A stretch of DNA of 64,000 bases. Origin: Amphiscolops sp. MND2022 (Eukaryota). Positions 13,769-53,094 of this stretch are shown here, one piece after another. Every line of letters starts with the position of its first letter. Position 1 is the first letter of the stretch. The position numbers were made by a program, and so were the translations under genes. A model generated the notes under the pieces. That model did no database searches. It had not been told where the DNA came from and worked only from the letters and a program-made list of their open reading frames with translations. Location: NCBI GenBank assembly GCA_964187785.1, contig OZ076409.1:28460001-28524000 (forward strand), read 5' to 3'.

Positions 13769-13770
13769 AT

Positions 13771-29514: not shown

Positions 29515-29632
29515 GTCACTGGTCTTCTCAACCTGCTTCTTCACTGGTCTTCACACTTCAACGTTCATCGACTTCTTGACTGGTCTTCACACTTCTATGT
29601 CCGCTGACTTCTTGACTGGTCTTCACACTCCA
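29515..29632. repeat. 3-4 copies of a ~36-bp repeat (core actggtcttcacact) in the 3' region of A
   Basis: Direct observation. Confidence 0.8.
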
Positions 29633-33885: not shown

Positions 33886-34638
33886 TGTCGTTAGTGTACC
33901 CTTGTGTAACGACAAGCTCTCACCATTGTCGCCGTAACCATAAGAGTTAGAGGAACACATGATATGGGTATTTGCCCGGGACAGGCGCCCATGACCATGA
34001 GCTCATTTTGCCTCTTTCGGGTAAAAACTGTCCCGTCAGAGGAGGATTCCGCTTCTTGTGAAGTGCTCGCCGGCCTGATCCAGTCTGTAATTGCTATCAG
34101 TAGTGCGCATTACGCTTTTTCTTCGAAACCAACACTTAGACAGCCTTTAAAAAATGCAAGTGGTGGAGAGGGAAAATCAAATTTTTTCGAAGTTACACAG
34201 GAGATCGAAATGAGTAGCTCACGAGCTGTTACAACAAGAAAATACGAAAATTACTACATAATTAGCACTTTTGAGGCAGCAATTAGCCGGGGACACAAGC
34301 ACGGATGCTTGGTCAAGCTAATTGACTCATTTTTGGTAATCACAGCGTCTTGTAACGCTTCGCTGAAGAAAGCACTGGTTAGAACAAAGTTCAGTCCGTT
34401 TTGGCAGAAATTTGAGTCTTTTTCTGACAGTGGCCGTGTTTTTCTGCAATCTTCTCGTTTTTTTGGGGTCTCTCTCGAGTCTCTTGCTCAAATCCTCTTC
34501 AATTCCGTGGACAGGTACTTGAATAAAGACACGCTACCGTCTGGCGGAATATGACTCTTTAGTAGAGGAGATATAGTCCCTTGAACGAAATTTTCATCGA
34601 AATTTTCGAAATCGTGCACTCGATAGGTAATCGCTACA
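33886..34638 (-). repeat. Candidate 3' LTR of element B (no partner in window)
   Basis: TG...CA ends; on the minus strand it is preceded by a PPT-like GGGGAGTGTA; lies downstream of B's ORFs. Confidence 0.35.
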
Positions 34639-35651
34639 TACACTCCCCGGGGTCTAGTCTTGACGTCCCCGTCAAGTGTGGGTTGGCGTCATTGAGTCTG
34701 TACCCAGAGTCATCTGTGTCCCACTGAGGAGGTAGAGTGCACATCAAGTAGCGCTGGACGGTTCATTGGGACATCGTCAAGTTGGCCTCGTGGAAGTGTT
34801 TTTGACCCAGCGTTGCTGCATTTTGATCAAATCAATACAACTTTGTATACAAATCTTATACGGCAAGGTCATTACTTTTTGTAGCCTGTCGTGAGCAATT
34901 CAGGCGTTAAAATTTCTTTTCGGCCATTCAAAAAAAAAATTTTTTATTTGCCGTTAGTGTTAAAACTTGTTTTAAGGTCAACGACCATCACATGACTGTT
35001 TGAAACATATTTTCCGAAGCTCGGGAGCTTCGCACTGCTTGGCGTTTGATAAAAGTTCTTTTGGTAAGCAGTTGCCATAAAATCAATCAATTAGTACGGT
35101 CAATTTAAAATTTCTTTTGCGAGACTTACTCTCGATCCTATCAGGTAGCTCAAGAAAAACAATGGTCGAGGTTCATCAATCTTTTTATTCTATTCATTTC
35201 TCATCTCTCCCTTCTTGTTTCCTTTTCCTTCATCTTTTCTTTTTGTCTTTTTCGACAATGGCAACAGTGTAAACGATAACTAGCAACTAAAAGGGTGTAA
35301 TAGCACCGAAAATTTAGAGCACGGAGTGCGCACAGCGCATCCACATGTAGCATAAAGTAGCATGAAAAAGCACTAACTGCAAACACAAATTGCAAATTGA
35401 ATATTGCATCTAACTAAGGCAAGGCAAGAACGCAGTTTCATGGTTGGGTTGCCGGTCCCAAAACGGAATAACAAGGAGGATGAAGCCCGGGGGCTTCATC
35501 TCCACTTGGAGATTTTTACCCATGACCAATTGGCATTTCCATAATCGAAGTTTAGCAACAACAGAGATTGAAACCATGAGATTTCGCAAAAGTTCATCTA
35601 GCATAAGACTATTGAAGTTGGAAATCGAATGACGACAAAGTTAGGTTTGTT

Positions 35652-38600
35652 TTACTGGGTGGCGGAGGAGTGACGCGCTCTGGGGGAAACGTCTGCCTTT
35701 GGTTGCAGTTCGGACAGAGATCCTCTTCGCGTATTTCCTCCTCGCAGGACTGGCTTTGGTTCGGCGCTGGCAGTTTCATGGGTCCTAGGAGCCGTGTTTG
35801 AGCCACTAGGGCCATTTTCTGCGGCTACAGGAGTTGAGGCTTCTGGCGAATGTTCTTGCGCTGCATTGGCTGAGCCGCTAACATTGACAGAACTTGTGGT
35901 CGACGTGGAGATTGGGATCTGCACATCCAATCTACTAGCATTAAACAAGTGCGGTAGATCCAGCGGTCTATTGCGGGTGGCAATGGGTCGTTTCTGTTTC
36001 GCACTGAGTTTCGGGCGTAGATCAGGTCGGCCCCAGAGCCCGCAGGCTCTGGACCAGTTGTCCCTGTTTGCATGTTCTATGATTTGCCTGGAGGCTTCCC
36101 ATTCGGGTCCGAGGGGATCACTTAGCAATTCCATGACGTGGTAGCAAGTCTCCGCTGGCATGTCGCTTCCCATAGTAACCCTCGCCTCTGGATTCCAAAC
36201 AGGCATTGTCAGTGGGGGGATGATCAAACCTTTTAGGCGTCCTTGGCGCTCCTCCAGGGTCCTTGACATCCACACGCCAAGTTTGTAGTGGTCGCGATAG
36301 GCATACTGCTCATCAAAGCCCTTCTCGACCATACTGATTGGCTTGGCCCGGATATAACCGATGGGTCCTCGCCAGTACCTGGCTGGAAGCTTAATCATTT
36401 GGAAATTGTACTCCTGATTCGTGTGACCGCCCATGGTTTGCACACATTCGGTCACGTACTTCCTGAGGTGTGCGAAACTCCAATTGAATCGCTGTGGGAT
36501 TCCGAGGTGGTCTAGGGGAGAATTATACCAATTCACCGGGCCGTATTCGCGAGGTAAAGGGCACGCCTTCTTTGTTCGGGCTTTGAGAATACCGGCCAGG
36601 TTTTCGTCTTGCTGCGTCTCATTCTTTATTGTGGTATACATGCGTGGTACTAGCAGAAACAGCCCACGTTCAAGCATCTGTTGATAGTTGTGTGGTTTCA
36701 CGTTCTTCAGATAAGTTAGGATGGATACCGTTAACGTCTCCGAGGCCAGTCTCAGAGGCTTGGTGGGATATCGGAGTATCCCGGTTGGGCCAAATATCGG
36801 AGTTAGCACGGGTGCTAACACCGGTATAAGATCTTCGACTTCAGCCAAAGTGAAATCTGCCAGCTGGTTGGGTGTCAAAAATCCAGCTACCTCGGTCACT
36901 AGCTGACGTCCATCATATAATGGTTGGTGCTTATCCACCCCCACGAAAAGTCCCGAGGCAAAGACCAGACTGCAATATATCCAGTGATATAATGAAGTTG
37001 TCATACGCTCCAGGTGAGCGGGATAATCCTGAGCGTCTTTCCGTTGCAACAGCTTGGCTAGGGCGGTGAGGCCTGAGATATTCCCTCGTGCAATCACCAG
37101 ATATGAAAATAGCCATTCCAGATTACACTCGGTAACCAGGTCAGTCAATATCATCATTGGGCCAGCTACAAAGCGTTTCTGCCCGAAAGTGAGCATCAGT
37201 GCAAAGAGTTCGTCCACCTGCACGGTACCGATAATCTCGCTGATTTCGATCAACCAACTCTCCTCTAAATCGAACTCGACTCGAATAACATCGGGACTCC
37301 AACCCAATCCTAAACAGATGGCAAACTGGTCGGTTGACATCCCAAGCTCTTTTGCAATGTCTGCTACGGTGGTAGTTTGTAGCCGCTGGTACCAAGCGTC
37401 GTAGGTGCTGCTGAAGGCTTGGATTTCAGCCTGAGTTTCGCTCGTCAGTTTTGCAGCAATGTACTTCATTCCCACTGATAATTGATCGATTGTGAGGTCT
37501 TTGGCAAATTGAACTCGCGGGATGGCTCGTTCTACTTCTCGGTCGCTGGGGACTTTGCTCATTGTGGCAGTGACTTCTGCTAGATCGGTTTTGATACAAG
37601 TCTTTCCACCGGAGGAGCGCGCGCGCTCTATCCAGTTATTCAGGCGGATTGCCTCGCATTCAGCCGTACTGGGCTCTGGGACTCGCCTTTCTCCGTCCTT
37701 GTTGAATACCAACAAGCCCATGCGAGTGCCGTGATCAAAGTAGATGGCATCGTCGATTGTCAGCTGCGCGTTCCCTGTCTTTTCCACTGACTGTAGCACT
37801 TTAGACACTGAGGCAATATACCCCATGTAGGACAGCCAGGAGGGACGAAAGTCATTGGAGCTAATCCGCATATTGGGCGCGCAGATCGCAAAGTCTATTT
37901 CTCTACACTTGCAAACTTCTGTCACCATGTATACAAATCTCTGCAAGGCGGGGGGCCATTGGCAAAAACCTGGGGGTGTCACGAACAGGGCTGGCACCTT
38001 GAGTTTGTCCTTCAAGATGTTTTGGGCTTTCTCCATGGCTCGGGCCATGTTCAATGCTGCATTGCGTACCGTTGTTCGCTGAGCTGGACTTGGATTCATA
38101 ATCTCAACGTTCGCGATCTGGGCCATTAGTCCTTCACAGGCCATGTGATCGAAAACGTTGCTGATGATCACTCTACGTGGAGGTGGCTCTTTGAAGGTTC
38201 CTGTCATCTCAGGGTCAAACATGGTGACCAACACTTCGGCCATCTCGGGAATACGTGACAGCGGTAGAGTAAAAACCATCACGTCTGACAACACGTTGTC
38301 AATGGGGACATTCTTGAGGAATGTTGAGTCAATAAGTAAGGCGAAGCGCGCACGCTGCAACCTTTCTTTTGGCATTGGTAGCTGGGCTTCGAGATCACGG
38401 GCGTACCGTGGGTTGATCTCAAAGGTCTCTCCAGCGTTGAGGAAATATCGATCGGCGAATTGACCACGAAGGTCAATGTTGAGGGCGTCTAGGTAATTGT
38501 CTTCTACGTTTGGCAGCATATTCATTGCCTTCCCTAGCCATGGCGGCTCATTGGTAGGGGTGTGGTCGGGGCGGATTGGACGATTCATGAATACAGGTAC

Positions 38601-40019
38601 ATTCGCCTTCTTCAACTTCGCATGCTCTTCGTCATTCGGAGGACACATGTTCTTCTCAAATAGCCATTCGGGCGATACTATAACTGCCGATTCCCAGATA
38701 CGTCGGGAGTCCTTGGTGACCAATGTGCCCTTTGTGTTTTGCATGGGACTCAGGTACGTCGGCTGTTTCGTAAAGGTCCTCTTAGTTGGGTGTTGAATCG
38801 CCTGTTTGCGGAGTGGGGTTCCAGTTGGACCACTGTTGGTCACTTTCAACCCTGGGTAATCACCCATTATGTCCTTGACAGTTCGCTGGGATACAGGGGT
38901 GCCTTGATAACCCACAGTTTGCTCCGATTGTGGCTGTCCTGATGTGGAGGGCTTAGGAGTCGCTCGTTGAGCCAGCGACTCGCGTGTTGTAGACTGCGTG
39001 GATGGTGGTTGCGGCAGTCCTTGTTGTTCGCCTGTTACGTCCGGTTGTGATTGGGGTGAGGGAAGCACGCATGCTTCCGACACTTTTGACTTCGTTTGGT
39101 CTGGCGCTTTGGAGGTTGTGGCCTTCTCGTTGGAAATCTTTTTGTCGGGTGGTGGCTTGCTCGAGGGGCTGTCACGGGCAGTCAATGGTTGTTGAGTCTT
39201 TTTTGTTGGAGAAGGGTCGTTGCGCTTTCTGGAGGCAGGGCGGCTCTCTCCTCCCCCCTTTTGAGAAGAGCGGGAAGGCGAACGACTGCGTTCCACAGTC
39301 ACGGTGCGAGAGTGTCCTGGCTGTTCAGACTGAGGATTGATGTGGGGAATAGTGATGACACCTTGACGTGTTTCAGTTGAAGTCGCATTGTCGTTGCGAA
39401 TAGTGACAGTGGGCAGAGCAATTCGACGTAGTTCTGGCCAACACTGCTCCATGGATCGCATGAAATCATCGTAATTGGGATTGGCAGCCACTGCTTGCAG
39501 CGCTGAGATGACTGCTTGCTCCGCCATAGATTGATTGGGCAAGCCAGGCACTATAGGAGCAGGAGTGCGCGCACGCACTACTGCTTGTGGTGTTGGTGCA
39601 GGAGGTGGCGGTGGAGGTGGAGGCGGGCAAGAAGGGATCTGTAAAGGTCTAGTCTGGTGGACTCCGCCATTCGCAGGACTATACGAGATTGCCGCACGAT
39701 CATCTGTGAAGTGATGCGTGAGATCATGGCCGTGCCACACTCCATCTTGGTACGTCATGGATCGTTGGAATCCAGGAAACCCTGAAGTAATTGATATCGT
39801 CAGCATTGGGGCTTGCAATTGTGATTCCATTTGGGCAATGATTGCTGTTACCCCGGCAACTGCAGCTGGCGACAGACCTTGGTCGAGTCTGTCTCGAATA
39901 AAGGCAATTTGTGGGGTGCGTTGGACACGCGCAGTGTCATAGACGCGTTGCCCCAAGGCAGGAGAGTTATCTGTAGACCTTGGCGGGACGTTGTTGCTTC
40001 TATCATTATCTTGGTTCAT
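35652..40019 (-). CDS. ORF2 of element B, 1455 aa: disordered N-terminus, SGNH/GDSL-hydrolase-like domain, unknown helical C-terminal region
   Basis: Intact ORF starting 223 bp downstream of the gag-pol stop. FALLIDSTFL, RVIISNVFDH, ALFVTPPG and NDFRPSWLSY fall in SGNH block I/III/V order and spacing. Confidence 0.8.
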   Translation of the reverse strand: MNQDNDRSNNVPPRSTDNSPALGQRVYDTARVQRTPQIAFIRDRLDQGLSPAAVAGVTAIIAQMESQLQAPMLTISITSGFPGFQRSMTYQDGVWHGHDLTHHFTDDRAAISYSPANGGVHQTRPLQIPSCPPPPPPPPPAPTPQAVVRARTPAPIVPGLPNQSMAEQAVISALQAVAANPNYDDFMRSMEQCWPELRRIALPTVTIRNDNATSTETRQGVITIPHINPQSEQPGHSRTVTVERSRSPSRSSQKGGGESRPASRKRNDPSPTKKTQQPLTARDSPSSKPPPDKKISNEKATTSKAPDQTKSKVSEACVLPSPQSQPDVTGEQQGLPQPPSTQSTTRESLAQRATPKPSTSGQPQSEQTVGYQGTPVSQRTVKDIMGDYPGLKVTNSGPTGTPLRKQAIQHPTKRTFTKQPTYLSPMQNTKGTLVTKDSRRIWESAVIVSPEWLFEKNMCPPNDEEHAKLKKANVPVFMNRPIRPDHTPTNEPPWLGKAMNMLPNVEDNYLDALNIDLRGQFADRYFLNAGETFEINPRYARDLEAQLPMPKERLQRARFALLIDSTFLKNVPIDNVLSDVMVFTLPLSRIPEMAEVLVTMFDPEMTGTFKEPPPRRVIISNVFDHMACEGLMAQIANVEIMNPSPAQRTTVRNAALNMARAMEKAQNILKDKLKVPALFVTPPGFCQWPPALQRFVYMVTEVCKCREIDFAICAPNMRISSNDFRPSWLSYMGYIASVSKVLQSVEKTGNAQLTIDDAIYFDHGTRMGLLVFNKDGERRVPEPSTAECEAIRLNNWIERARSSGGKTCIKTDLAEVTATMSKVPSDREVERAIPRVQFAKDLTIDQLSVGMKYIAAKLTSETQAEIQAFSSTYDAWYQRLQTTTVADIAKELGMSTDQFAICLGLGWSPDVIRVEFDLEESWLIEISEIIGTVQVDELFALMLTFGQKRFVAGPMMILTDLVTECNLEWLFSYLVIARGNISGLTALAKLLQRKDAQDYPAHLERMTTSLYHWIYCSLVFASGLFVGVDKHQPLYDGRQLVTEVAGFLTPNQLADFTLAEVEDLIPVLAPVLTPIFGPTGILRYPTKPLRLASETLTVSILTYLKNVKPHNYQQMLERGLFLLVPRMYTTIKNETQQDENLAGILKARTKKACPLPREYGPVNWYNSPLDHLGIPQRFNWSFAHLRKYVTECVQTMGGHTNQEYNFQMIKLPARYWRGPIGYIRAKPISMVEKGFDEQYAYRDHYKLGVWMSRTLEERQGRLKGLIIPPLTMPVWNPEARVTMGSDMPAETCYHVMELLSDPLGPEWEASRQIIEHANRDNWSRACGLWGRPDLRPKLSAKQKRPIATRNRPLDLPHLFNASRLDVQIPISTSTTSSVNVSGSANAAQEHSPEASTPVAAENGPSGSNTAPRTHETASAEPKPVLRGGNTRRGSLSELQPKADVSPRARHSSATQ

Positions 40020-40242
40020 GCCGACAATTCTGAAAGAGCGTAGGTCGATTGTAGCACACTTGATAGTAGGGCAACACCATAGGTCATTTTAAGGGTAATA
40101 CCAGGGAAAGTAATAGAATGTCACGCATTAACATTAAAGAAAAAGGTAATGTAATAGTCTCAAATAAACTCCGTGTCGACTCACTAAACTTAATCGAGCG
40201 GATAAAAAACAAAAAACAAAAAAAAGCGGAAAAACGAGAGCT

Positions 40243-43200
40243 TTATGGAAAGCTAGCGACGCTTGCAATAGATACGTAAACGCGATCGTGAAGAACGACG
40301 GTCAGGGGGGTGTCGGCGAATACGTCCATCAAACAGGTATAAAAATCAAAAAGATTACGTATTGGGCGTTCAGGATCAACGATGGCAAAGTGTACTTCTA
40401 TCGCCTCCAAGCGCTCGAGTAACGTTTTCAAATGATCAAGACATCCAAAGAGAATATCAGCGAGCATAGGGCAGCGAGGTGTAGCTCGTGTGATTAGAAG
40501 GTGGATAGTCTGAGGATGGCCGTCTATCAAAGATGTGGGTAGCGTTACAATATTGCCAACCTCCGGTCGAAGTTGAAAGATTGCATCTGCACCATGCTCA
40601 CGAATGACGTAACGAAGAGCGGCAGAACTAGTTTCCAGATTTGCGGGACAACATAAAACGATATGATGGGGAGTCTGCAGGAAGTCCGTATTGGCATACT
40701 GCACATAGTCAACCAATTGAGGTCTCACGGCTCCATGGTACACTAACTCTTGTCCGGGGTCTTTGGAGAGAGCATCGTCACATGCATTCGGGAGGAGGCC
40801 TTTGATTGCGCCCAAATCTTGCCACACAGATCGCGGCAGTGATTGATTATCAATATGAGCCCTGGACCATGTATCCAGTGCGTGCAGGGCCGATTGGAGC
40901 GATACAGGACTAGGAAATGAGTGTGTCCATTCGTCCAGGAATCTGATTCGTGAAAAATTCGATAAAACTGCTATAATAAGTTCCAGCCACCATTCAAACT
41001 TAATTTTACCACGATATAGGTCTATGGTGTGGAAACAAGTGATTCTATCAGGAGAGGCCATCGTCCGCAAACTCTCCAGACAGGTGTTCAAGTTAGTGGG
41101 ATAAACCAGGTCGGATGCTTGTTTGGCCGTAACTAGTAGCCCCCAGTTGCTTGTAGGCTGATAGACGTCTCCTGGTTTTGCGGTGACGTTGTATTTGTCA
41201 TACAAGAGGTCAGCAGGAATACAGCGTATCATTTGGATAGGCTCTCGCTCATAGTTGAAAGGACCAAAAGCAATATATGTAGGCAAAGGGGGAACAGTGA
41301 TGGGTAAAGTGAACTCCAAACCAACAAGATCATAGGTCCACTCCTTGAACCTTGGGCACGGGGCCTTTGCTATCGTAGAATCTTTCATTTTGGATAGGAT
41401 ATAGTCCACGGGATATGGAGTGTCACTGCGTTGTAGCCCAGTGTAGGTTTTCTCGGCTCGAATAACCAAACGGTCAACCATTCCGCTCGGAAGTGATTTC
41501 TCCTGTTCACGTGCTAGCAGGACTCCCTGGGATTTGATTGGGAAGCCCGCGTGGACCATGTAGTTACATTCGCAGTTTCTTAGGCCACATGTTCCGCAAC
41601 GATATCTGGGAATACGATTGCGTCGCAGTCCATAACGAGCGTTGGTCGATTCTGGCGGTGCTGCCTGATCTGAGGTAACCGCCGCGCTAGGGGCAGAAGA
41701 GTCAGTGTCCATTGATGGAGTGTTACGAACACGGGTAGGGGTGTTAGGTCTGGCGTGCGTTGTACGAGGAGGTCTACCTCTGGGACGGCCTCTTTTGCGA
41801 GCGCCTCTAATAGCACCTCTCCGTTGGTGACCACGTGGCAGCGAGGCTCGCGGCCTTGCTCTGCCCGGCGGACGTCCTCGGGGTCCACGCCCTCTAGGAG
41901 CATTGAGGAGTTTCGTGGTAGTAGCTGCATCGTTGTTGGTGGGAACTGTTGCAGGGGGAATTGATCCCTTTTCGTTATTGGTCGTTGGTGTGTCAGCACC
42001 GTTGTCGTCTAGGGTTGGGTTGAGAACATTGTCATCGATTAGGGGCCAAATGGGAAAGTTACTCAACATATCCGTAAGAGATGGATTTGTCAATAATGGG
42101 GCGGATGTACCGGTCAAGGAGGTGGCGGCACTTTCGGTGGGTACGTGGATATTAGGATTCGGGGCGATGTCTAATGCGTCGGGTACTGCTTCATTCTCTG
42201 AAAATAGAGCCTCCATAGCAGGTAGTGGTGATATTGGCATTTCGGGAATAGGCGCAGGCTCATCTACTTGTGATGACAAGATAACACTTTCGTCAGGACT
42301 AGCCTGAACACTCGATAGGAGTACATCAGAACGTTCATCGTCAGACTCTGTCGAAGAGTAGCCAAATTGTTGATAATGCAGGCGGCTGCCACCTGCGCGC
42401 ATGTGTGTGCGTAACCGTGTGTCCATCCAATGTCTTTGTCGAGAAGGCAAAGAGGCATTGCTGGCTTCTGAAATTGGTTCCTCTGCACGGTAAGAAGGTT
42501 GCGAAGCGTCGTCTCTCACCTCCTCATGGGATTGTTCTGGATCAGGGTCCATGATAATAGCAACCTCGCCGTTATGCGCAGGAACAGCTGCCCATTCTGT
42601 TGGACCACCATGATGCGGTTTCAATCGTTCGAAATGCACTTTCTGCCCAGTGTCAAGTATGTAAACACGTCCCTCTTGTAGCACTCGTGCTACTTTGTGA
42701 GGACCACGCCACGCTCTCATCAATTTAGGGGATCCCTTTTGAGGAATGTATCGGCAGAATACCCAAACAGGTTCGCCCACTTCGTAGGCCTTAGCACGAA
42801 TTGCTCTGTCGTACTTCAATTTTTGTCGTTGTTGGGCTTGATGCGTGTTGCGACGGACTAAGTCATGAATCTCTTGTTGTCGAGCCAGCACATGTTCCAC
42901 ATAGGCTTCGTGTGATTCGAATGACTGAGTTGCAAATTCCGGATACAAAAAAGTCAGGGGTATAGCTTTTTCCATGCCTCTGGTTAGCATATACGGGGAA
43001 AATCCAGTAGTGGCATGACGTGTGGAGTTGTATGCACCCATAACTTCATCTAGGTACTGATCCCAGTCACGCATTCGTCTAGAGCAGAATACACGCAGTA
43101 GGGTGAGTAGCGTTCGGTTTTGTCGTTCTACCAACCCTTGAGTCCTGGGGTGGCCAGCAGTTGAGGTTACTTTGGTCACTTGGGCTGCTTTCATAAACTC

Positions 43201-46200
43201 AGCAGATATTGCCGCGGTGAAATTGGGAGCATTGTCTGACTGCATCCTCGTTGGCGTTCCATGGCGGGCAAACCACTTCTGCAACAACAACTTTGAAGTG
43301 GTCGCTGCATCATACTCATCGTGGTTACACGGCACAGCTTCTGCGAGCTTAGAGAAATGATCGATAATAACCAATATCCCTGTGTTACCATCATCAGAGG
43401 GACAAATTTTCATGTGGTCATATTGGACTAGCTCGTTGAAATAACCGCTTTGGATATTTTTCAAGTGAAAACGTACATCACCAGGCTTGTCGCGTACTTG
43501 TTGACAAGTGATACATTGGCTGACGTATTGTCCAATGGTGCGGTGGATACCTGGCCAAGTGTGGCGCTCTTGAATTCTGGCCAAGACTTTCGCGATGCCC
43601 TGATGTCCCATCGCGTCGTGGGCCTTGAATAGTATCTCATGCTGATACAATTGTGGCATCACTATCATGCAGGGGCGTTCATGCAGAGCTCTTTGAGTTT
43701 TGGAGTATTTTACACACAAAATCCCGTTGGCGTTTATCAGTAGAAGGTTCTTCTTCTGTTTGTGGTAGTTTTTGGCGAAGGTGCGCACATTTTCCGGAAA
43801 GACGTCATTATCTATTGATTCTTGCATTACCAATTTCTTGATAGCCAATATATGGACGTCACGGTTTTGTGCTAGTAGTAGATCCTTCAATCCATGGACT
43901 GTGTTAGCATGTTCATGCAGTTCCATTGATATGCTGTTTACCACAAACGCGGCTTGTTTTACGTGCTCTGGTGCAGTGCTAGTTGCTTGCTTTTCCGTTA
44001 GTGGGTAAGTGGTTCTTGATGGTACGTTGGCAGCATGCGTGGGGAGTAGATAGTCTCGTTGATATTCCTCGGTCAGTTCTAACCAATCCTCAGGATATTC
44101 TGGATAAAGTTCGGCAGGCAGTGTCAATTCTGGTTTTGGCAACGTAGGTAGAGGCGCTCTCATGGCTTCCTCGCGTATGGTTGCATTTCGTTTGCTTCCT
44201 CCGCTCTTTCGCGTGGGAGCGGCAACTGTGGTCTCGGGTGAACTTTGGCTACCCAATCTTTGCAAGTGTGCAGGCAATTCTGGGTGATTTGGTATCACAC
44301 GTCCGTGGACATCGAACCATGGGGCTAGCGGGAGTTTGTTATATTCTTCCTGTGATAGGAAATCCCATTTGTCTGCAATTGCGGGTAAACCCTTTAGTTG
44401 CTTTTCGTGTTTTTTGTAATCATTTGTTCGTTTGCTAAGACCGTCAGCATTTCGATGTTGCGTTCTGGGTCGATGCTCAATGCTGAAGTGATATTTTTCA
44501 AGAGCCATAATCCATCGACCGATAATCGCCTGATCCATCGAATATGTTTTTAGCCAGGATAGAGCCTGATTATCTACTCTCAATGTGAACTTTCGTGGAC
44601 AGAGATAACTGTGGTTTTTCAAAATGAAATAGTATGCAGCATACATTTCCAATTTTGGGGCTCCATACTTTGCTTGCGTAGCGGTTAATTTTTTGCTTCC
44701 GAATACAATCGGTCGCAATTTGCGACTTTCAGGTGGTCCTTGCCATTGGTGCAGAATACCCGATATAGCTACACCACTAGCATCTGTGTCGAGAACAAAT
44801 TCGCCTTCAGTGTCAGGTTGCGCCAGGGCGGTGGCTTCCATTAGTGCCACTTTGATGCTGTTGAAGGCTCGCTGCTGCTCCTCCCCCCATAAAAATGAAG
44901 AGGCTCCTCCCGTTATCGCGTGTAAAGGGGCAACTAGTTTTGCATGCCACGGGATAAAATCTCGATAGTAGTTGGCAAAACCCAAGAAACTTTGCAATTC
45001 AGTCTTGGTTCGCGGGATATCCCATTCTTTCAGCTTGATGACAGCTTTTGGATCTGGCTTGATACCATCTGCGGATACTACCCGGCCCAAATATTTGATC
45101 TCCGATTTCATGAAGTCACACTTGGAGACTCTCATTTTGAACCCGGCCTCACGCAGGCATTGGAATACTTCGCGTAGTCTATCCATGTGATCCTCGATGG
45201 TCTCGGTAGCAATCACAATGTCATCGATGTAGGCCATAACCATACTTCCTTCACGGTTCACTATTCTTTGTAGCGCTCGCGCTATTGCCCGTTGAAATGT
45301 CGCTGATGCGTTACACATACCAAAAGGCATACGCCGCCACTCAAATAACCCAAGTTCACAAGCGAAGGCAGTCTTTTGACGATCGGCTTTTCGGACAGGA
45401 ATTTGCCAGAATGCCCATGCCAAGTCAATACTAGTATAGATTTTGGCTTTGCCCAATCTGGATAGACTTTCATCGATACGTGGCAAGGGATAAGCGTCTT
45501 GGATGGTCACTTCATTAAGTGGTCGAAAGTCACAACAGAATCGCAACTCACCACTCTTCTTTTTGACCATGACAATTCCACTCGCCCAAGGGGATAGAGA
45601 AGGTTGTATCATTCCCAAAGCTAGCAGGTCACGGACTTCTTGGTTAGCACGTTCTGCCTTGTCAGGCGACAATCGTCTTGCACCTTCACGGTGGGGTACA
45701 GCCCCTGGCTCTACTTCCACCGGGTGCTTAGCGATTTTACACTTGCCAATATCGGCTTTGAATTTCATAAACAAATCATCAAATTCATTCAAAAGTTTAC
45801 TAAGCGTGTCGCTGGCGGTCGATCCCCACAAACCGCGCACTTCGTCGAGTTGTGCTTCCGGGCCCGGTATCGGAGCCATTAACGCCGGATCGGTTCGTTT
45901 TTTTACTTCGCGCTCGGACAAGCCTAGTTCTGACGGTTCGGTAGAGGACAAAAACTCAAATTCAGATGAAGAACTATATTCAGAAGAAGAATCAAGGTTC
46001 ATCTGTTCGTAAACTTTACAAACATAATTTGCATTTGACTGCTGAGTTTCACTTGATTGTCCGGGGACAATCTGGGGGATGGCTTTATGAACCATTGTTA
46101 CGGGTACCGCGGTTCCTAAAAGGGTGCCCTTTTTAATCCGCTGCACGTTGCTGGTAAGATTTCCTAAACTGACGTAAAGGAAGCCAGTCTCCCCCACGGT

Positions 46201-49200
46201 CGCCACGGTGTCCTCTAAAAAGATGGCGTTTTTTAACATTCGGTTAGATGTTTGGAAATTGATTAGCACGGTTCGAAATATGAAAGGTTCTAAGTTGTCT
46301 ACAAGCAATTTAGCGCGTAGTATTGCGCGTTCAAAAGGTTGCAACACTACGTCCTGTGCAATCGCCACCGATGAATTGAGTGATTCGTTACTTACTTGTG
46401 TGTGGGCATGGTACCACACTGGCTCAGACGGAGCTCGGACAATGACTTTCATCGCGGTTAAATCCACCAAGACTTGATAAGCTCTTAGGAAGTTTCTGCC
46501 CAGGAGGAAGTCTTCCACTCCCATGGCGTCATCGACTACCACGAAGTTAGTTTCCAGTTCGTAGCCTCCCAATTGGAACTTGACTTTCTCCGCTAGACCA
46601 AAAGTTTTGATCGTTTTCCCATTCGCGGCATACAAGTCAATACCATAAGGTCGTAGGAGTGTCCCAGTACGCACAGCGACTCGATTGTAGGCTGAGAAGG
46701 TGAGGATGGACACTCCTGATCCAGTGTCTATCAGACCACGTAATGGCACGGGAGCAGCATCGGGAACCATGAATGAAACTACGAGCGACGCACGCTCATC
46801 GATTCTCGCTTCACCAGTTGGTTCTTGAGCATCAATGTTATAGCAGCGCAGCTCCTGCGGTCCTAAGCAGATTCCAGGAGGAAATGCGTCAGTAATGATA
46901 GTGGCACCAAAACGCATGTCAACACCATCTATGCAAACTTTGACTGGAATCGGAGAATAGGCATGATACGTCGAAGTGACACCTTTTACCTGCCATTCTT
47001 CCGGTTGGGGCAGGGTCAATTGTCGGCAATTCTCGTTTGCGGCTATCTCGTCTATCAGGGCGTCTATGGTGAGTTCTGGGCGGGTTTCCTTCTCAATCGC
47101 CAGTAGTAATCGGACAGACATGATAGTGCGTCCCGAGGGATCAAAAGTAGTTGGCTCCGGGTTCGTCTGGATTTGAATCTTGCCACATGTGACGGTAAGG
47201 GGCGTTGCCACGTGAGCGGCTTCAGCAGGACGAAGCATGAGTACCATTTCACTGTCACTCATTGTTTGAGGAGCAGGTGGCTGTTCAGCCCAGAGGCTGT
47301 AGGCCAAATCCTCATGTACTGGAACATTTTGGCATTGTGATGCAGAGTGTTCAGTCATGCCACAATTTACACAGAATACGGGGCCAGAACATGCAGAGGC
47401 CACATTATTCTCACATAAGTTTACTCGCTCTTCAGGTGCAGCGCGAGCCGCTGGTTTCCTTGCTAGGTCTCGACTTGGGCATTCCCTTGCAAAGTGACCT
47501 GGTAGTCCACAGTTGAAGCATGCTCCTTGGGGAATCACTCTCGCTGGTTGCTGTTGTGCAGGAGCCTGTTTTACTGATGCAGGGGCTGGTGGAGCCATTT
47601 GGGGTTTAGCCTCTCGTTGTCCTTGGTTAGGAGGTAGTACGTTTTGCGGTAGGCCTGGTGCTGGATGAACCAATTTCCCTGGCACGAAAGGGTGAGGCCT
47701 CGATCTCATTGCATACCTTGGGTCGTAAGGTTTTGACGTGCTTGGGCGATGCCGTTGCAATTGTCTCGTGGTGAACCTTAGGGATTCTACAGTTGGTGGC
47801 TCGGTCAGATATGCCTCTGCAGCGTATACCACGGCCAACTCTTGTCGCAGCGTCGGATCATTGACGCCATCTATAAAACGTTGCAGGATCTCATAACGAC
47901 GTGTAGTGATAGGCTCATCTGGGAAACCTTGGGTGCGCAGACCTTCTAATGCGTCCAGGAATTGCATCCAATCTTCTTTTTCCTGTTGGACACGAGACAT
48001 GAAGGTTTGCCTTACGTGCATGCGATTCCCACCGGTTCCAAATCTGCTGGCCAAGAGAGAGAATACCTTGTCGGGCTCGTCTCGTTCAGGTTCAGATTTG
48101 TTGATAATATAATTTCTCGCCTCTCCTTCCAGGTGGTCGATGATAGCCCAGGCTCTGTCGATTTTTGGGGATTTTGCATGCACCCTTTCTAGAAATCGCT
48201 TCATCACTGGGAGCCATCCATCGACAGAACCATCTTTAGTGCCTTTGTATACCGTAGGGCGCACCCTAGTTTGATCTCGATTAGCAATCAGCGGTGCTAG
48301 TTCCTTGGACATGGCTTTAGATATTGCCTCGGTAAACCTGAGTTGCTCTGGTGATATAGGCGCTTCTTCGCTGATAGCTGGTGGCGGGATGCTGCTGCCT
48401 CGCGTTGAGTTGACAGAGTCATCGGTGTTCTCGGGGAGAGTCACTTCTCGGCGTCGAGTGCTGCTAGCGCATGGGTTGCCCGAGGGTAATTCGTCGTTCG
48501 CGGTTTGGAATTCTGCAGCTGATTCTCCCAAAGTTGCATTTGCTGTTTGGAAGGTGCTAGTGACTTCGGTTAGCATGTTTGTGCGTGTGGGCTCTCGCAG
48601 GTCGCTGATACCCATGCTTGAAGTGTCGATAGTTATCACCTCGCATGTTGGTTCTTTCTTGTGAGTTTTGGTTGTGGGTGGAATATTTTTTGTTGATACC
48701 GCAGATGGGACAAATTTCGTCGATGTTGACGCAGCTTCTCCATTTGAGACCAGAGTTTGTGGCAAGGGCGCGTACCTGGCCAAGTGTTGTTTAGAGCCAG
48801 ATGGGTTTGTTGAAATCGTCACACTCTCTTTTGGCTTGAGGGAGACGCTCTTCATGGGTTTTGGCAGTGACATATCAGTGTCTTGCAGCAATTCTTTGAT
48901 AGTGTTGCTTACTGGTGCGGGTTGAGGTTGGATGTTTTTCAACATAGTGCCCATTGCTTGTATTTGTGAACATACCTCTTGCAGTTGAGCTTCCATGCGC
49001 ACCTCTCTTTCGGTCACCATGTCCTTTATTTCGGCCATTCGATAACCCATGGCATCCATTCGGGCTGCCTGAATTTCATGTCCTTGCGCTTGTCGCTCAG
49101 TCGATGTTCGCAGTTCAGTTTGTACGGCTTCTATCTCCTCCATTATTGACTGATGCTCTCTGTCGCACCTTGCTTTACGCTCAGATAGTTGTGAAGCAGC

Positions 49201-50010
49201 TTGCTTCACGCCTATCTGGGCATCTAATAGAGCTTTGCGCGCTTTCGCTGCTTCATGTACGGCTCGATATGCTGAAGATCGGGCAGATGCAGCTTTTGAT
49301 GAAGGTGAGGATGAGCGCGAGTCGCCATGAGGTCCTGTAGTGCCAGTCTGTGCTAGTAAGGCTGGGGGCCGTACTTGCTTACCCTTCCAAGATGCTCGGG
49401 GGGCCGTAGCTTCTTGAAGACGTGCCCTGGCATAATTCATACCCCCGACATAAGACATTTGTTGCAATATCTCTGCCGTGTTCGCAGTGCTCTCGCTGGC
49501 CACGCTGGGAGCTTTGAGTTGTCCAGTGGCATTCAAGCAACTCATTTCAGTTTCGTCCTCAGCGTTTGTCCTGTTGGAGTTGGGCCATGTTCCTGCTTCG
49601 TCAGTACCGAAAGGTGTGATGGCTACTTTGGTGAGTTCTTGTAACCATTTGGACGTGTGCGCCTGACTTCCTGTTTCGTCTGCTGAACCTCCGATATCAT
49701 CGGTAGTCTTGGCAACCGGCTTGGCTTGATATTCCTCCGATGCGTCGTCTGACATAGGGTCTGAAAAATCGGGTTCCATAACGAAACTGTCATCAGTTGG
49801 CCAATCTTCCTCCTTGGGATCTGAGGTCAAGTCGGATATTGCACTGAGGTTTGTCTCGCACCCCGTTGGGTCTGGTGTCTTTGATGCTTCAGTGCATCGC
49901 GAGGTGTCCTTCCTCCCCCTTTTTGAATGATTAGAGCGTCGCTGGGTGTTCGCGCGGCCTAATGTTCTCGTTATAGAAATCCAAAGGTTACGCAAACTGT
50001 TGGGTTTCAT
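40243..50010 (-). CDS. Intact Gag-Pol polyprotein of element B, 3255 aa, with C-terminal AT-hooks and macrodomain-like tail
   Basis: Two CCHC knuckles (CFNCGLPGHFAREC, CVNCGMTEHSASQC); protease LIDTGS; RT YIDD; RNase H LDTDASG; integrase HHCC and QYDH/SDNA/LVERQN. Confidence 0.97.
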   Translation of the reverse strand: MKPNSLRNLWISITRTLGRANTQRRSNHSKRGRKDTSRCTEASKTPDPTGCETNLSAISDLTSDPKEEDWPTDDSFVMEPDFSDPMSDDASEEYQAKPVAKTTDDIGGSADETGSQAHTSKWLQELTKVAITPFGTDEAGTWPNSNRTNAEDETEMSCLNATGQLKAPSVASESTANTAEILQQMSYVGGMNYARARLQEATAPRASWKGKQVRPPALLAQTGTTGPHGDSRSSSPSSKAASARSSAYRAVHEAAKARKALLDAQIGVKQAASQLSERKARCDREHQSIMEEIEAVQTELRTSTERQAQGHEIQAARMDAMGYRMAEIKDMVTEREVRMEAQLQEVCSQIQAMGTMLKNIQPQPAPVSNTIKELLQDTDMSLPKPMKSVSLKPKESVTISTNPSGSKQHLARYAPLPQTLVSNGEAASTSTKFVPSAVSTKNIPPTTKTHKKEPTCEVITIDTSSMGISDLREPTRTNMLTEVTSTFQTANATLGESAAEFQTANDELPSGNPCASSTRRREVTLPENTDDSVNSTRGSSIPPPAISEEAPISPEQLRFTEAISKAMSKELAPLIANRDQTRVRPTVYKGTKDGSVDGWLPVMKRFLERVHAKSPKIDRAWAIIDHLEGEARNYIINKSEPERDEPDKVFSLLASRFGTGGNRMHVRQTFMSRVQQEKEDWMQFLDALEGLRTQGFPDEPITTRRYEILQRFIDGVNDPTLRQELAVVYAAEAYLTEPPTVESLRFTTRQLQRHRPSTSKPYDPRYAMRSRPHPFVPGKLVHPAPGLPQNVLPPNQGQREAKPQMAPPAPASVKQAPAQQQPARVIPQGACFNCGLPGHFARECPSRDLARKPAARAAPEERVNLCENNVASACSGPVFCVNCGMTEHSASQCQNVPVHEDLAYSLWAEQPPAPQTMSDSEMVLMLRPAEAAHVATPLTVTCGKIQIQTNPEPTTFDPSGRTIMSVRLLLAIEKETRPELTIDALIDEIAANENCRQLTLPQPEEWQVKGVTSTYHAYSPIPVKVCIDGVDMRFGATIITDAFPPGICLGPQELRCYNIDAQEPTGEARIDERASLVVSFMVPDAAPVPLRGLIDTGSGVSILTFSAYNRVAVRTGTLLRPYGIDLYAANGKTIKTFGLAEKVKFQLGGYELETNFVVVDDAMGVEDFLLGRNFLRAYQVLVDLTAMKVIVRAPSEPVWYHAHTQVSNESLNSSVAIAQDVVLQPFERAILRAKLLVDNLEPFIFRTVLINFQTSNRMLKNAIFLEDTVATVGETGFLYVSLGNLTSNVQRIKKGTLLGTAVPVTMVHKAIPQIVPGQSSETQQSNANYVCKVYEQMNLDSSSEYSSSSEFEFLSSTEPSELGLSEREVKKRTDPALMAPIPGPEAQLDEVRGLWGSTASDTLSKLLNEFDDLFMKFKADIGKCKIAKHPVEVEPGAVPHREGARRLSPDKAERANQEVRDLLALGMIQPSLSPWASGIVMVKKKSGELRFCCDFRPLNEVTIQDAYPLPRIDESLSRLGKAKIYTSIDLAWAFWQIPVRKADRQKTAFACELGLFEWRRMPFGMCNASATFQRAIARALQRIVNREGSMVMAYIDDIVIATETIEDHMDRLREVFQCLREAGFKMRVSKCDFMKSEIKYLGRVVSADGIKPDPKAVIKLKEWDIPRTKTELQSFLGFANYYRDFIPWHAKLVAPLHAITGGASSFLWGEEQQRAFNSIKVALMEATALAQPDTEGEFVLDTDASGVAISGILHQWQGPPESRKLRPIVFGSKKLTATQAKYGAPKLEMYAAYYFILKNHSYLCPRKFTLRVDNQALSWLKTYSMDQAIIGRWIMALEKYHFSIEHRPRTQHRNADGLSKRTNDYKKHEKQLKGLPAIADKWDFLSQEEYNKLPLAPWFDVHGRVIPNHPELPAHLQRLGSQSSPETTVAAPTRKSGGSKRNATIREEAMRAPLPTLPKPELTLPAELYPEYPEDWLELTEEYQRDYLLPTHAANVPSRTTYPLTEKQATSTAPEHVKQAAFVVNSISMELHEHANTVHGLKDLLLAQNRDVHILAIKKLVMQESIDNDVFPENVRTFAKNYHKQKKNLLLINANGILCVKYSKTQRALHERPCMIVMPQLYQHEILFKAHDAMGHQGIAKVLARIQERHTWPGIHRTIGQYVSQCITCQQVRDKPGDVRFHLKNIQSGYFNELVQYDHMKICPSDDGNTGILVIIDHFSKLAEAVPCNHDEYDAATTSKLLLQKWFARHGTPTRMQSDNAPNFTAAISAEFMKAAQVTKVTSTAGHPRTQGLVERQNRTLLTLLRVFCSRRMRDWDQYLDEVMGAYNSTRHATTGFSPYMLTRGMEKAIPLTFLYPEFATQSFESHEAYVEHVLARQQEIHDLVRRNTHQAQQRQKLKYDRAIRAKAYEVGEPVWVFCRYIPQKGSPKLMRAWRGPHKVARVLQEGRVYILDTGQKVHFERLKPHHGGPTEWAAVPAHNGEVAIIMDPDPEQSHEEVRDDASQPSYRAEEPISEASNASLPSRQRHWMDTRLRTHMRAGGSRLHYQQFGYSSTESDDERSDVLLSSVQASPDESVILSSQVDEPAPIPEMPISPLPAMEALFSENEAVPDALDIAPNPNIHVPTESAATSLTGTSAPLLTNPSLTDMLSNFPIWPLIDDNVLNPTLDDNGADTPTTNNEKGSIPPATVPTNNDAATTTKLLNAPRGRGPRGRPPGRARPRASLPRGHQRRGAIRGARKRGRPRGRPPRTTHARPNTPTRVRNTPSMDTDSSAPSAAVTSDQAAPPESTNARYGLRRNRIPRYRCGTCGLRNCECNYMVHAGFPIKSQGVLLAREQEKSLPSGMVDRLVIRAEKTYTGLQRSDTPYPVDYILSKMKDSTIAKAPCPRFKEWTYDLVGLEFTLPITVPPLPTYIAFGPFNYEREPIQMIRCIPADLLYDKYNVTAKPGDVYQPTSNWGLLVTAKQASDLVYPTNLNTCLESLRTMASPDRITCFHTIDLYRGKIKFEWWLELIIAVLSNFSRIRFLDEWTHSFPSPVSLQSALHALDTWSRAHIDNQSLPRSVWQDLGAIKGLLPNACDDALSKDPGQELVYHGAVRPQLVDYVQYANTDFLQTPHHIVLCCPANLETSSAALRYVIREHGADAIFQLRPEVGNIVTLPTSLIDGHPQTIHLLITRATPRCPMLADILFGCLDHLKTLLERLEAIEVHFAIVDPERPIRNLFDFYTCLMDVFADTPLTVVLHDRVYVSIASVASFP

Positions 50011-52102: not shown

Positions 52103-52678
52103 TTATGAGTGACCCGTGTAAGGAGTAAAGTCCGTATGATCCCTCAGATCACAAGCAGACCTTGAGTCCTTCTTTGTAATCTTCTCATTTGTATTTTTCC
52201 ACATGTTCCCAGTTCTGTTCTCATCAAAGGACGTGGGCGGCTCAACGCCATGTTGGTTCAAAGGCAAATTTCCTACCATGTTTTGTATCTCTGGTATTAT
52301 TCTCTCACTAATAGCACAGTTGATTGCTCTACTAATCTGATTTTGCATGAAGTCCATCATGGTCTCCATTTCACGAGACATTCTCGCATTCATTTCACTT
52401 GATAGTGTATTGATCGATTCAACCAATCTTTCCTCCCTAACAGGCTCATTTTGATTATTGATGTCTCTAATTTCATTTTCTTGGGACGAATTTTCTCTGT
52501 TTGGGAAAGGCCCATAGTCACGTCGCCCGTCTGGGACGTTTATGAGACTGTCCAATTCTCTTTCTATAGAATTTGAATTTCCATCCCCTAACATTACGTC
52601 CATGTTGTCGTAATCAGACAACATGTCCAATTCTCTTGACTTTCTGGCCTTGGCCTTTTGTCTTCTTGTGGAAGGCAT
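52103..52678 (-). CDS. LTR-encoded ORF (191 aa, coiled-coil-like), possibly the Gag N-terminus
   Basis: ATG ORF stays open to the LTR end and stops only in flanking DNA. Confidence 0.6.
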   Translation of the reverse strand: MPSTRRQKAKARKSRELDMLSDYDNMDVMLGDGNSNSIERELDSLINVPDGRRDYGPFPNRENSSQENEIRDINNQNEPVREERLVESINTLSSEMNARMSREMETMMDFMQNQISRAINCAISERIIPEIQNMVGNLPLNQHGVEPPTSFDENRTGNMWKNTNEKITKKDSRSACDLRDHTDFTPYTGHS

Positions 52679-53094
52679 AAAATATTTCTACAGGAGGTAA
52701 TATTTGAATTATTCCTGTAATCGAGTAGTAAGAAAGCTTTACAAGACAACTTGTATAAATGCAAAGTTTGTAGGTTAACTGTATCAAGTTTAGCAAAATT
52801 GTGTCTTGCGAGGTCCCGACCTGGGTATATATACCTAAGTGGGCATGATTCGCAATTTTATGGGGGTCATGATACTAAAAATAACTTGCAAGTTATAAAT
52901 AGAACACGTCACCGCTAAAAATAGAATCATTGCGTCACTACAGACAGGTAGAGGCGGGTAGATCAAAGTGCCTTAGTAGGCCGAGTGATACATGGAGTAT
53001 AGCACTTACATGTAACGCAAAATGCATAACAACTTTTACATGTAGGAAGCATTCATGTAAGACACATATGACGGGTAGCTGTAAGGGACTTATA
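52117..53094 (-). repeat. Probable 3' LTR of element C (upper boundary may instead be 53010)
   Basis: Plus strand TGTAAG at 52117; CTTATA at 53089-53094 followed by a PPT-like tract (minus AAAAAGGGAT); an alternative CTTACA ends at 53010. Partner LTR is outside the window. Confidence 0.55.

What the first reader, a model, noticed from the sequence alone, without database searches (positions are those of the whole stretch)
35652..40019. 1455-aa non-env second ORF with a probably inactive SGNH-hydrolase fold
Seen: an intact ORF in the env position without a signal peptide; at ~37790-38350, IDS in place of GDS and DFRP in place of DxxH. Established: SGNH esterase domains occur in ORF1p of some CR1/L2 LINEs, and the catalytically dead OSK domain of Oskar binds RNA. 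Inference: a lipid- or RNA-binding accessory protein; the following ~600 aa are unrecognised.
Basis: partly seen in the sequence, partly recalled or inferred. Interest (0 to 1): 0.75.

Follow-up and report, generated by a model that had tools for sequence, protein, structure and literature searches.

The report
Dead-esterase accessory protein of gypsy retrotransposon
A high-copy gypsy-type jumping gene carries, where retroviruses keep their envelope gene, a large second gene whose predicted esterase-shaped domain appears to have swapped its catalytic histidine for arginine across distant relatives, so it likely works as a non-enzymatic, probably membrane-binding helper, a variant of the esterase genes already known from rotifer elements.

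Summary
The ORF is real: 1455 codons on the minus strand, starting 223 nt after an intact 3255-aa Ty3/gypsy gag-pol. Pfam finds nothing in it. An AlphaFold model of aa 500-810 (pLDDT 80) matches SGNH/GDSL hydrolases in Foldseek and VIA-align (best Z 11.4; Oskar OSK Z 8.4).

By inferred register, Ser565 is kept. The block II Gly, block III Asn and catalytic Asp are replaced, and the catalytic His is Arg725 (31 of 38 relatives, also at about 30% identity). It is therefore probably a pseudo-esterase with a conserved, remodelled pocket. Behind it lie a confidently predicted helical domain (aa 834-1021) and a strongly conserved hydrophobic block (aa 1040-1170), both unassigned.

The family is large: 90% clusters of 657, 581, 491, 237, 173 and 164 records, plus distant relatives on other contigs. 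Linkage to pol is shown only in this window. The 5' LTR is absent, probably because another element sits at 52117 and beyond.

Esterase ORF3s are already described in bdelloid LTR elements (about 1.3 kb, catalytic residues intact), so this is a new variant, not a new kind. Most likely role: a non-catalytic membrane/lipid-binding scaffold for the particle (about 40%).

The parts
35652..40019 (-). Second ORF (env position), 1455 aa
   Evidence: shuffles max 271 aa; full-length relatives of 1426-1521 aa at 36-100% identity
39420..40019 (-). aa 1-200, moderately conserved N-terminal region, no signal peptide, not folded here
   Evidence: 42% identical to the P0004 subfamily; hydropathy
38730..39419 (-). 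aa 201-430, basic Pro/Ser/Thr/Gln-rich linker, probably disordered
   Evidence: 49% P/S/T/Q, 33 K+R against 17 D+E, 26% identity to P0004; disorder inferred from composition
37776..38357 (-). aa 555-748, predicted SGNH/GDSL hydrolase-fold domain (probable pseudo-esterase)
   Evidence: AlphaFold pLDDT 79.9, pTM 0.77; Foldseek best 1z8h E 2.7e-4; VIA Z 11.4, rmsd 3.6, 182 aligned to PAF-AH 1bwp
38325..38333 (-). Block I: I563-D564-S565 (GDS position; Ser kept, Gly replaced by I/V/M/F)
   Evidence: S in 26 of 33, D in 32 of 33, no G in 32
38259..38264 (-). Block II: P586-L587 (oxyanion Gly position, 22 residues after the Ser as in ZfL2-1 S143/G165)
   Evidence: L in 32 of 36, G in none of the 36; Gly present in distant P0284; register inferred
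38145..38159 (-). Block III region: N621-V-F-D624-H625, family-conserved, in place of GxND
   Evidence: N 37 of 39, D 37 of 39, H 36 of 39; His is D in P0284 and Y in P0212
37842..37856 (-). Block V: N722-D-F-R725-P726 in place of DxxH-P
   Evidence: R 31 of 38, H 2 of 38; residue 722 variable; last domain helix starts at aa 728 in the model
37728..37775 (-). aa 749-764, strongly conserved motif just after the SGNH core
   Evidence: N750, Q752, L753, A758, D762 and G764 at 85% or more; kept in distant relatives
36957..37520 (-). aa 834-1021, all-helical domain, confidently predicted, unassigned
   Evidence: block pLDDT 75-97, mostly above 90; conserved down to about 22% identity
36510..36902 (-). 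aa 1040-1170, best-conserved block against distant relatives, with a proline-broken hydrophobic segment at aa 1064-1082
   Evidence: 40% identical to P0294 against 31% for the SGNH domain; KD peak 1.6-2.3 at this segment in 4 of 4 proteins tested; model confidence low
40030..40040 (-). Candidate splice acceptor (pyrimidine tract ending in CAG) 10 nt before the ATG
   Evidence: read from the sequence; no RNA evidence
40243..50010 (-). 3255-aa single-frame gag-pol: zinc knuckle, protease, RT, RNase H, integrase, long C-terminal tail
   Evidence: cluster of 1094 records
40261..41373 (-). Conserved pol C-terminal tail, about aa 2880-3250; looks like two tandem macro-type domains (recalled resemblance, not confirmed)
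   Evidence: 41-61% identity across pol subfamilies; weak self-similarity E 0.09; no macro family in Pfam or PHROGs
33905..34642 (-). Candidate 3' LTR, about 735 bp, with a 7/8 terminal inverted repeat; starts at 34642 or 34638; short purine tract at 34643-34648
   Evidence: read from the sequence; no second copy in the window, so unconfirmed
52117..53838 (-). Candidate 3' LTR of a different gypsy element that abuts or interrupts the 5' leader; probable reason no 5' LTR is seen
   Evidence: purine tract at 53839-53846 followed by TGT, ending in TACA; its ORFs share contigs with each other (8 of 14 contig lengths)

Best explanation
This is the accessory gene of a high-copy Ty3/gypsy-type retrotransposon, encoding a likely cytoplasmic multidomain protein built on a predicted esterase fold that probably no longer hydrolyses and likely serves to tether the element's particle or RNA-protein complex to lipid membranes. 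SHOWN: an intact ORF directly behind gag-pol; a large conserved family; a predicted SGNH fold; no N-terminal hydrophobic leader. INFERRED, strong: loss of canonical catalysis (Ser kept; His to Arg; Asp, Gly and Asn positions replaced), with a conserved polar pocket (D564, S565, N621, D624, H625, R725) reused for binding. INFERRED, moderate: expression from a spliced subgenomic RNA through the acceptor at 40030, as for env and ORF3 genes. INFERRED, weak: the ligand is an acyl chain or anionic lipid head group, the hydrophobic segment at aa 1064-1082 and the helical domain anchor or multimerise the protein, and the basic linker contacts RNA or Gag. Together these would route particles along membranes to assembly sites or into germ-line cells, standing in for env.
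For: Fold. All 50 entries listed are esterase, acyltransferase or SGNH-type chains or carriers of such domains; best Z 11.4, rmsd 3.6, 182 aligned. Active-site columns: (R725 in 31 of 38; Arg also in P0294, P0284, P0283 and P0278 at about 30-34% identity). Selection: full-length ORFs of 1400-1600 aa in three identity tiers (94-100%, 78%, 36-42%; 18 of 360 fetched relatives), with folded regions more conserved than linkers. [quoted passage not shown] Esterase ORF3s of LTR elements are proposed to act on membranes (PMC5408684). The same hydrophobic segment recurs in 4 of 4 proteins tested.
Against: No binding, localisation or expression data. Ser565 is retained and a conserved Asp-His pair lies near the pocket, so unusual catalysis is not excluded. 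The SGNH domain is almost neutral (21 K+R against 18 D+E), whereas ZfL2-1 membrane binding is described as charge-driven. The residue register comes from model secondary structure and motif spacing, not from a printed structural alignment. ZfL2-1 (the closest functional precedent) is not among the 50 entries listed. More than half of the conserved protein is unassigned and could carry the main function. Linkage to gag-pol is seen only in this one locus.
Confidence: 0.4

Rival explanations
1. Oskar-like RNA or granule scaffold: the dead SGNH domain binds RNA and, with the basic disordered linker, concentrates element RNA in germ-line granules for packaging or protection.
For: The OSK domain is among the structural matches (5a4a, Z 8.4, rmsd 4.2, 166 aligned). 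OSK resembles an SGNH hydrolase, lacks catalytic residues and binds RNA (PMC5785220, one passage read). There is a conserved Arg at the pocket and a basic low-complexity linker.
Against: OSK ranks 34th, about 3 Z units below ordinary esterases. The domain is nearly neutral. The transposon-type esterase that was tested did not bind oligo-A RNA. No LOTUS or RRM family was found.
Confidence: 0.2
2. Active but non-canonical hydrolase or acyltransferase: Ser565 remains the nucleophile and His625 (with Asp624) replaces the lost block V His, acting on lipids or acylated proteins.
For: S565 in 26 of 33, D624 in 37 of 39, H625 in 36 of 39. Retention of the nucleophile position over deep divergence is not expected of a fully idle site.
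Against: H625 is Asp in P0284 and Tyr in P0212. Both oxyanion-hole positions and the Gly before the Asp-Ser are replaced by bulky residues. Active-site geometry could not be measured because the tools return no coordinates.
Confidence: 0.17
3. Counter-defence protein: the unassigned helical and C-terminal domains block host silencing (small-RNA or chromatin repression), and the SGNH fold is only a structural module.
For: Very high record numbers in several subfamilies. The best-conserved block lies outside the SGNH domain. The pol tail may hold macro-type domains, which would fit host-defence interplay (unconfirmed).
Against: No similarity to any known suppressor or nucleic-acid-binding family. 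The idea rests on analogy recalled from plant transposon anti-silencing proteins and was not tested.
Confidence: 0.15
4. Passenger: a captured esterase gene decaying neutrally, or a separate insertion unrelated to the gypsy element.
For: Linkage to pol is shown only here, and no LTR pair encloses both genes in the window.
Against: Intact ORFs of about 1430-1520 aa persist in subfamilies only 36-42% identical, and conservation follows domains. The pol tail shows a similar tiered family structure (97%, 53%, about 40%). No RT or transposase follows the ORF downstream.
Confidence: 0.05

Closest known systems
GDSL esterase/lipase ORF3 of bdelloid rotifer Vesta/Juno LTR retrotransposons (Rodriguez, Kenefick, Arkhipova 2017, PMC5408684; parts 1-3 of 5 read, covering abstract to discussion)
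   Same: SGNH/GDSL-fold protein in a separate ORF downstream of pol in a gypsy-like element, in place of env; proposed membrane role; typically expressed from spliced RNA.
   Different: Those ORFs are short (about 1.3 kb amplicons) with intact S, G, N, H residues and low copy number. This one is 4.4 kb, appears catalytically remodelled, carries about 600 further conserved residues, and has hundreds of records per subfamily. Homology between the two was not tested.
ORF1p esterase of CR1/L2/RTEX/Penelope elements, for example zebrafish ZfL2-1 (Schneider et al. 2013, PMC3905857; passages and Discussion read)
   Same: Transposon-encoded SGNH domain; the same 22-residue spacing from the Ser to the block II position; membrane binding that does not need the active site.
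   Different: Those are active enzymes with S143-D279-H282, placed upstream of pol in non-LTR elements with a coiled coil. Here the His position holds Arg and the gene lies downstream of an integrase-bearing pol.
Catalytically dead GDSL derivatives of Athena-L (Terminon) Penelope-like elements (one sentence in PMC5408684)
   Same: Retroelement-borne GDSL domain lacking catalytic residues.
OSK domain of Drosophila Oskar (PDB 5a4a; PMC5785220 and PMC7250577, passages read)
   Same: SGNH-fold pseudoenzyme within a protein that has disordered regions; structural match Z 8.4.
   Different: Cellular insect gene with a LOTUS domain; weaker match than ordinary esterases; RNA binding not shown here.
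env genes of gypsy/errantiviruses and other env-bearing LTR elements
   Same: Position behind pol and a candidate splice acceptor.
   Different: No signal peptide, no C-terminal membrane anchor and no fusion-protein family match; not an env.

Membership tests
SGNH/GDSL hydrolase superfamily (fold) | Three-layer alpha/beta fold with a parallel sheet matching solved SGNH domains | tested here: met
   best Z 11.4-11.9, rmsd 3.5-3.6, about 180 aligned (predicted model)
SGNH/GDSL hydrolase superfamily (fold) | Sequence-profile match to a Pfam SGNH clan family | tested here: inconclusive
   no hit for the protein, the isolated domain or relatives; too diverged for the profiles
Active SGNH hydrolase | Block I nucleophile Ser in G-D-S | tested here: met
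   D564-S565 kept (32 of 33; 26 of 33), but the Gly is replaced by I/V/M/F in 32 of 32
Active SGNH hydrolase | Block II oxyanion Gly | tested here: not met
   L587 in 32 of 36, no Gly in these 36; Gly in distant P0284; register inferred
Active SGNH hydrolase | Block III oxyanion Asn (GxND) | tested here: not met
   N-x-x-D-H instead; D624 in 37 of 39, H625 in 36 of 39; register uncertain by one residue, but neither candidate is Asn
Active SGNH hydrolase | Block V catalytic Asp and His (DxxH) | tested here: not met
   R725 in 31 of 38, His in 2 of 38; Asp at 722 in 4 of 39
Active SGNH hydrolase | Measured hydrolysis | not testable with these tools
   needs an assay
Ty3/gypsy LTR retrotransposon | gag with CCHC knuckle and pol in the order PR-RT-RH-IN | tested here: met
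   zf-CCHC 830-846, protease 1089-1176, RT 1482-1642, RNase H 1708-1840, integrase 2119-2288
Ty3/gypsy LTR retrotransposon | Two LTRs, primer-binding site, target-site duplication | tested here: inconclusive
   only a candidate 3' LTR with a purine tract; no partner in the window; another element occupies 52117 onward, and the contig (136,725 bases) extends beyond the window
Ty3/gypsy LTR retrotransposon | Clade placement by RT phylogeny | not tested
   no named reference RT set was available
Retroviral-type env | Signal peptide and C-terminal transmembrane anchor | tested here: not met
   no N-terminal hydrophobic stretch; only internal peaks of KD 1.5-1.7 (hydropathy only)
Bdelloid Vesta-type GDSL ORF3 | GDSL ORF downstream of pol with intact catalytic residues | tested here: not met
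   position met, catalytic residues not
Bdelloid Vesta-type GDSL ORF3 | Common ancestry with Vesta ORF3 or LINE ORF1 esterases | not tested
   no such sequences came up in any search
Oskar OSK domain | RNA binding by a dead SGNH fold | not testable with these tools
   fold match only (Z 8.4)

The most novel reading that the evidence does not exclude
A lineage of gypsy elements has turned a captured esterase into a pseudoenzyme and fused it to helical and hydrophobic modules of an undescribed kind. The result is an env-free delivery protein that moves retrotransposon particles across membranes or into germ cells: a transposon parallel to Oskar and a new route of cell-to-cell retroelement spread.
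Probability: 0.15. Interest if true: 0.85.

Novelty: new variant of a known kind. Interest (0 to 1): 0.5.

Why it matters
Why unrelated retroelements keep esterase domains is an open question: the ZfL2-1 ORF1p is dispensable in HeLa assays and its role is unresolved (PMC3905857). A successful family that seems to have dropped catalysis but kept the fold and a conserved pocket, down to about 30% identity, would show that binding rather than hydrolysis is what selection keeps. It gives a natural test of the membrane-targeting idea. It also adds a large conserved protein region with no family assignment in the env slot of an actively spreading element. If the protein proves an ordinary passenger or a weak esterase, it is only a further example of the bdelloid pattern.

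Tried and rejected
Profile and sequence searches
- Pfam, PHROGs and PDB sequence searches gave no meaningful hit for the ORF, its domain or its relatives.
- ESM Atlas gave only two sub-threshold hits (0.76, 0.75) for aa 500-800 and none for aa 800-1350.

Fold search of the C-terminal part
- The aa 774-1350 model (mean pLDDT 62.7) found no match with Z of 5 or more, or E of 0.001 or less, in PDB or BFVD.
This does not show a new fold.

Binding and expression
- Homodimer job for aa 500-810: no answer, alignment not used.
- No sequencing run was listed, so no reads were laid.

Genomic context
- No genome is held.
- Locus searches with ORF2 proteins found nothing in the metagenome and viral collections and one 816-bp contig in the genome collection (L062).
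- Of 62 loci held (61 fetched by the RT region), only L062 matched ORF2 profiles; most are too short to reach the ORF2 position.
- Contig-length matching of pol and ORF2 records gave 3 shared among 104 and 191 lengths, too sparse to conclude anything.

Readings rejected
- LTR-less element: no repeat pair exists, but a different element abuts the 5' leader, so this is not claimed.
- LINE ORF1: no endonuclease-RT frame follows.
- Fusion to pol: none of the 360 fetched relatives exceeds 1600 aa, but longer lengths were not searched.
- Macro domains in the pol tail: not confirmed.
- Rfam: no match in 33000-54000.
- One search compared two alignments that share members and is uninformative.

Literature and earlier notes
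- Searches listed no paper whose title or abstract describes a long inactive SGNH ORF in gypsy elements. Repbase reports and most subscription journals are not in the library, and no supplements were read.
- Earlier scan notes held no look-alike of this sequence.


Full report
OBSERVATION. The ORF lies on the minus strand at 35652..40019 and encodes 1455 aa without internal stops. Shuffled copies of the same DNA gave at most 271 aa (500 shuffles). [quoted passage not shown] The first 40 residues have no hydrophobic stretch. A pyrimidine tract ending in CAG lies 10 nt before the ATG, which would suit a spliced subgenomic RNA; this is inference only.

ELEMENT. No long repeat joins the two sides of the gag-pol/ORF2 pair. 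About 1 kb downstream of ORF2 a short purine tract is followed by a stretch of about 735 bp bounded by a 7/8 inverted repeat (33905-34638 or 34642), the usual look of a 3' LTR. It has no partner in 50011-64000. Upstream, a second purine tract and TGT...ACA stretch (52117-53838) seems to end a different element: ORFs in and next to it form small clusters (21, 40 and 7 records) that share contigs with one another (8 of 14 contig lengths). The simplest reading is a nested insertion or truncation in the 5' leader, with the 5' LTR outside the window; the contig is 136,725 bases. I therefore do not claim an LTR-less element. The host was not identified.

FAMILY. The protein belongs to a large family of unnamed ENA records. 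The 90% clusters hold 657 (this protein), 581, 491, 237, 173 and 164 sequences, many of them fragments. These are gene calls, not counts of elements, and that they come from one assembly is an inference from their long contigs. The 50%-level library gave 443 hits at E 0.001 or better, of which the best 150 were listed. Of 360 fetched relatives, 18 are 1400-1600 aa long, in tiers of 94-100%, 78% and 36-42% identity. More distant members (P0294, 1140 aa; P0284, 1187 aa; P0283) lie on short contigs of 0.8-23 kb, probably from other hosts. One sits on an 816-bp contig of a bacterial MAG, most likely carried-over eukaryotic DNA. They share the SGNH domain at about 30-34% identity and the downstream domains. 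A tree of 15 SGNH domains separates several well-supported lineages. The pol tail shows similar tiers (97%, 53%, about 40%), consistent with joint descent, but physical linkage is shown only in this window.

FOLD. AlphaFold2 on aa 500-810 with a 60-sequence alignment gave pLDDT 79.9 and pTM 0.77, with a core of alternating strands and helices. Foldseek's best hit was a GDSL-like lipase (1z8h, E 2.7e-4; only 1 hit at E 0.001 or better), and nearly all listed rows were SGNH proteins. The independent VIA search ranked PAF-acetylhydrolase first (Z 11.4, rmsd 3.6, 182 aligned), followed by GDSL lipases and carbohydrate esterases. Oskar's OSK domain came 34th (Z 8.4, rmsd 4.2, 166 aligned). The second look agreed. 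The fold assignment is secure as far as a predicted model allows (my estimate about 0.9).

ACTIVE SITE. ZfL2-1 esterase uses S143, D279 and H282 with G165 and N195 in the oxyanion hole (PMC3905857). I placed the blocks here by model secondary structure and spacing, so the register is inferred; the tools print no residue-level superposition. Counts are over 155 proteins (the 150 listed representatives plus five long members), of which 32-39 cover each column. Block I: D564 32 of 33 and S565 26 of 33, with Gly replaced in all 32. Block II, 22 residues on: L587 32 of 36 (Gly in distant P0284). Block III: N621-x-x-D624-H625 at 37, 37 and 36 of 39. Block V: R725 31 of 38 (His 2), P726 35 of 38, and residue 722 variable (Asp 4 of 39). 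So one of five canonical positions is kept. The pocket residues are conserved rather than random, which points to reuse. Against a catalytic role for H625, it is Asp in P0284 and Tyr in P0212. I put loss of canonical activity at about 0.8.

REST OF THE PROTEIN. aa 1-200 is moderately conserved. aa 201-430 is a basic, low-complexity linker. aa 749-764 is a conserved motif after the SGNH core. In the aa 774-1350 model, aa 834-1021 is an all-helical domain with block pLDDT mostly above 90, while most of the rest is low confidence; it remains unassigned. aa 1040-1170 is the best-conserved block against distant P0294 (40%) and holds a proline-broken hydrophobic segment found in all four proteins tested (KD 1.6-2.3). 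It may be a membrane-dipping loop or a buried oligomer interface.

MECHANISM. I commit to a non-catalytic membrane or lipid-binding scaffold that routes the element's particle or RNA-protein complex, expressed like env from a spliced RNA (0.40). The main support is precedent: the one tested transposon esterase binds anionic lipids and liposomes, not oligo-A RNA, and keeps binding when its active site is mutated. The conserved hydrophobic segment also fits. The near-neutral charge of the domain speaks against simple electrostatic binding. Rivals are an Oskar-like RNA scaffold (0.20), non-canonical catalysis through Ser565 and His625 (0.17), anti-silencing (0.15) and a passenger (0.05).

COMPARISON AND NOVELTY. 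SGNH domains in an ORF behind pol are already described for bdelloid Vesta and Juno LTR elements, with intact catalytic residues, and dead GDSL derivatives are noted for Athena-L elements (PMC5408684, parts 1-3 of 5 read; echoed in PMC6431247, passages). Unchecked notes of this scan report SGNH cargo in copia and Mutator elements (e1-7695285, e1-7274972) and a dead enzyme fold in a gypsy Pol (e1-7548979); I did not test them. What differs here is the size, the family-wide His-to-Arg change, the long conserved unassigned extension and the high copy number. Paper searches (listings only, apart from the papers named) showed no description of this family, but Repbase and most subscription journals were out of reach and no supplements were read. 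It works like a transposon esterase-fold accessory protein and is a member of the SGNH fold superfamily, but not of the active SGNH hydrolases or env. Verdict: new variant of a known kind, interest 0.5.

Noticed in passing
window 40261-41373 (-), pol aa about 2880-3250: The gag-pol ends in a conserved folded-looking tail (41-61% identity across subfamilies) with two weakly self-similar halves that recall macro (ADP-ribose-binding, OARD1-like) domains. The resemblance is from memory; Pfam, PHROGs and PDB sequence searches gave no macro hit. A Cys-rich motif and an Arg-Gly-Arg-Pro-rich stretch precede it.
   Followed up: partly
window 47300-47400 (-), pol aa 878-894: A second, weaker zinc knuckle follows the CCHC knuckle (Pfam zf-CCHC_4, E 0.011). 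Gag and pol are in one frame, with an N-terminal extension of about 560 aa.
   Followed up: no
window 52117-63863: A different gypsy element (pol 60021..63863, minus) carries extra ORFs behind integrase: antisense 604-aa (55720..57534, with a Cys/His zinc-finger-like stretch), 277-aa and 170-aa ORFs, a sense 278-aa ORF running into a candidate 1.7-kb LTR, and a 191-aa ORF inside that LTR. Three of these were looked up and recur together on other contigs (clusters of 7-40 records).
   Followed up: partly
window 13354-31155 (+): A third LTR element of 17.8 kb with 415-bp LTRs (97.6% identical), gag and broken pol, followed by about 8 kb with unassigned ORFs (25327, 27105 of 437 aa, 28853) and a very strong C-over-G skew (-0.2 to -0.5).
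   Followed up: no
window 9309-10415: Tandem array of about six units of about 178 bp.
   Followed up: no
window 411-1278: Cluster of short 33-42 bp direct and inverted repeats, including an imperfect palindrome of about 220 bp at 1031-1252; may be the end of a miniature inverted-repeat element.
   Followed up: no
window 31156-31628 and 33295-33779: Two 75%-identical copies of about 480 bp flank a 2-kb stretch just beyond the candidate LTR, probably an older repeat at the insertion site.
   Followed up: no
L062 1-816: A relative of this ORF (33% identical over the SGNH region) lies on a tiny contig of a Bacteroidota MAG; likely eukaryotic contamination of that genome record.
   Followed up: partly
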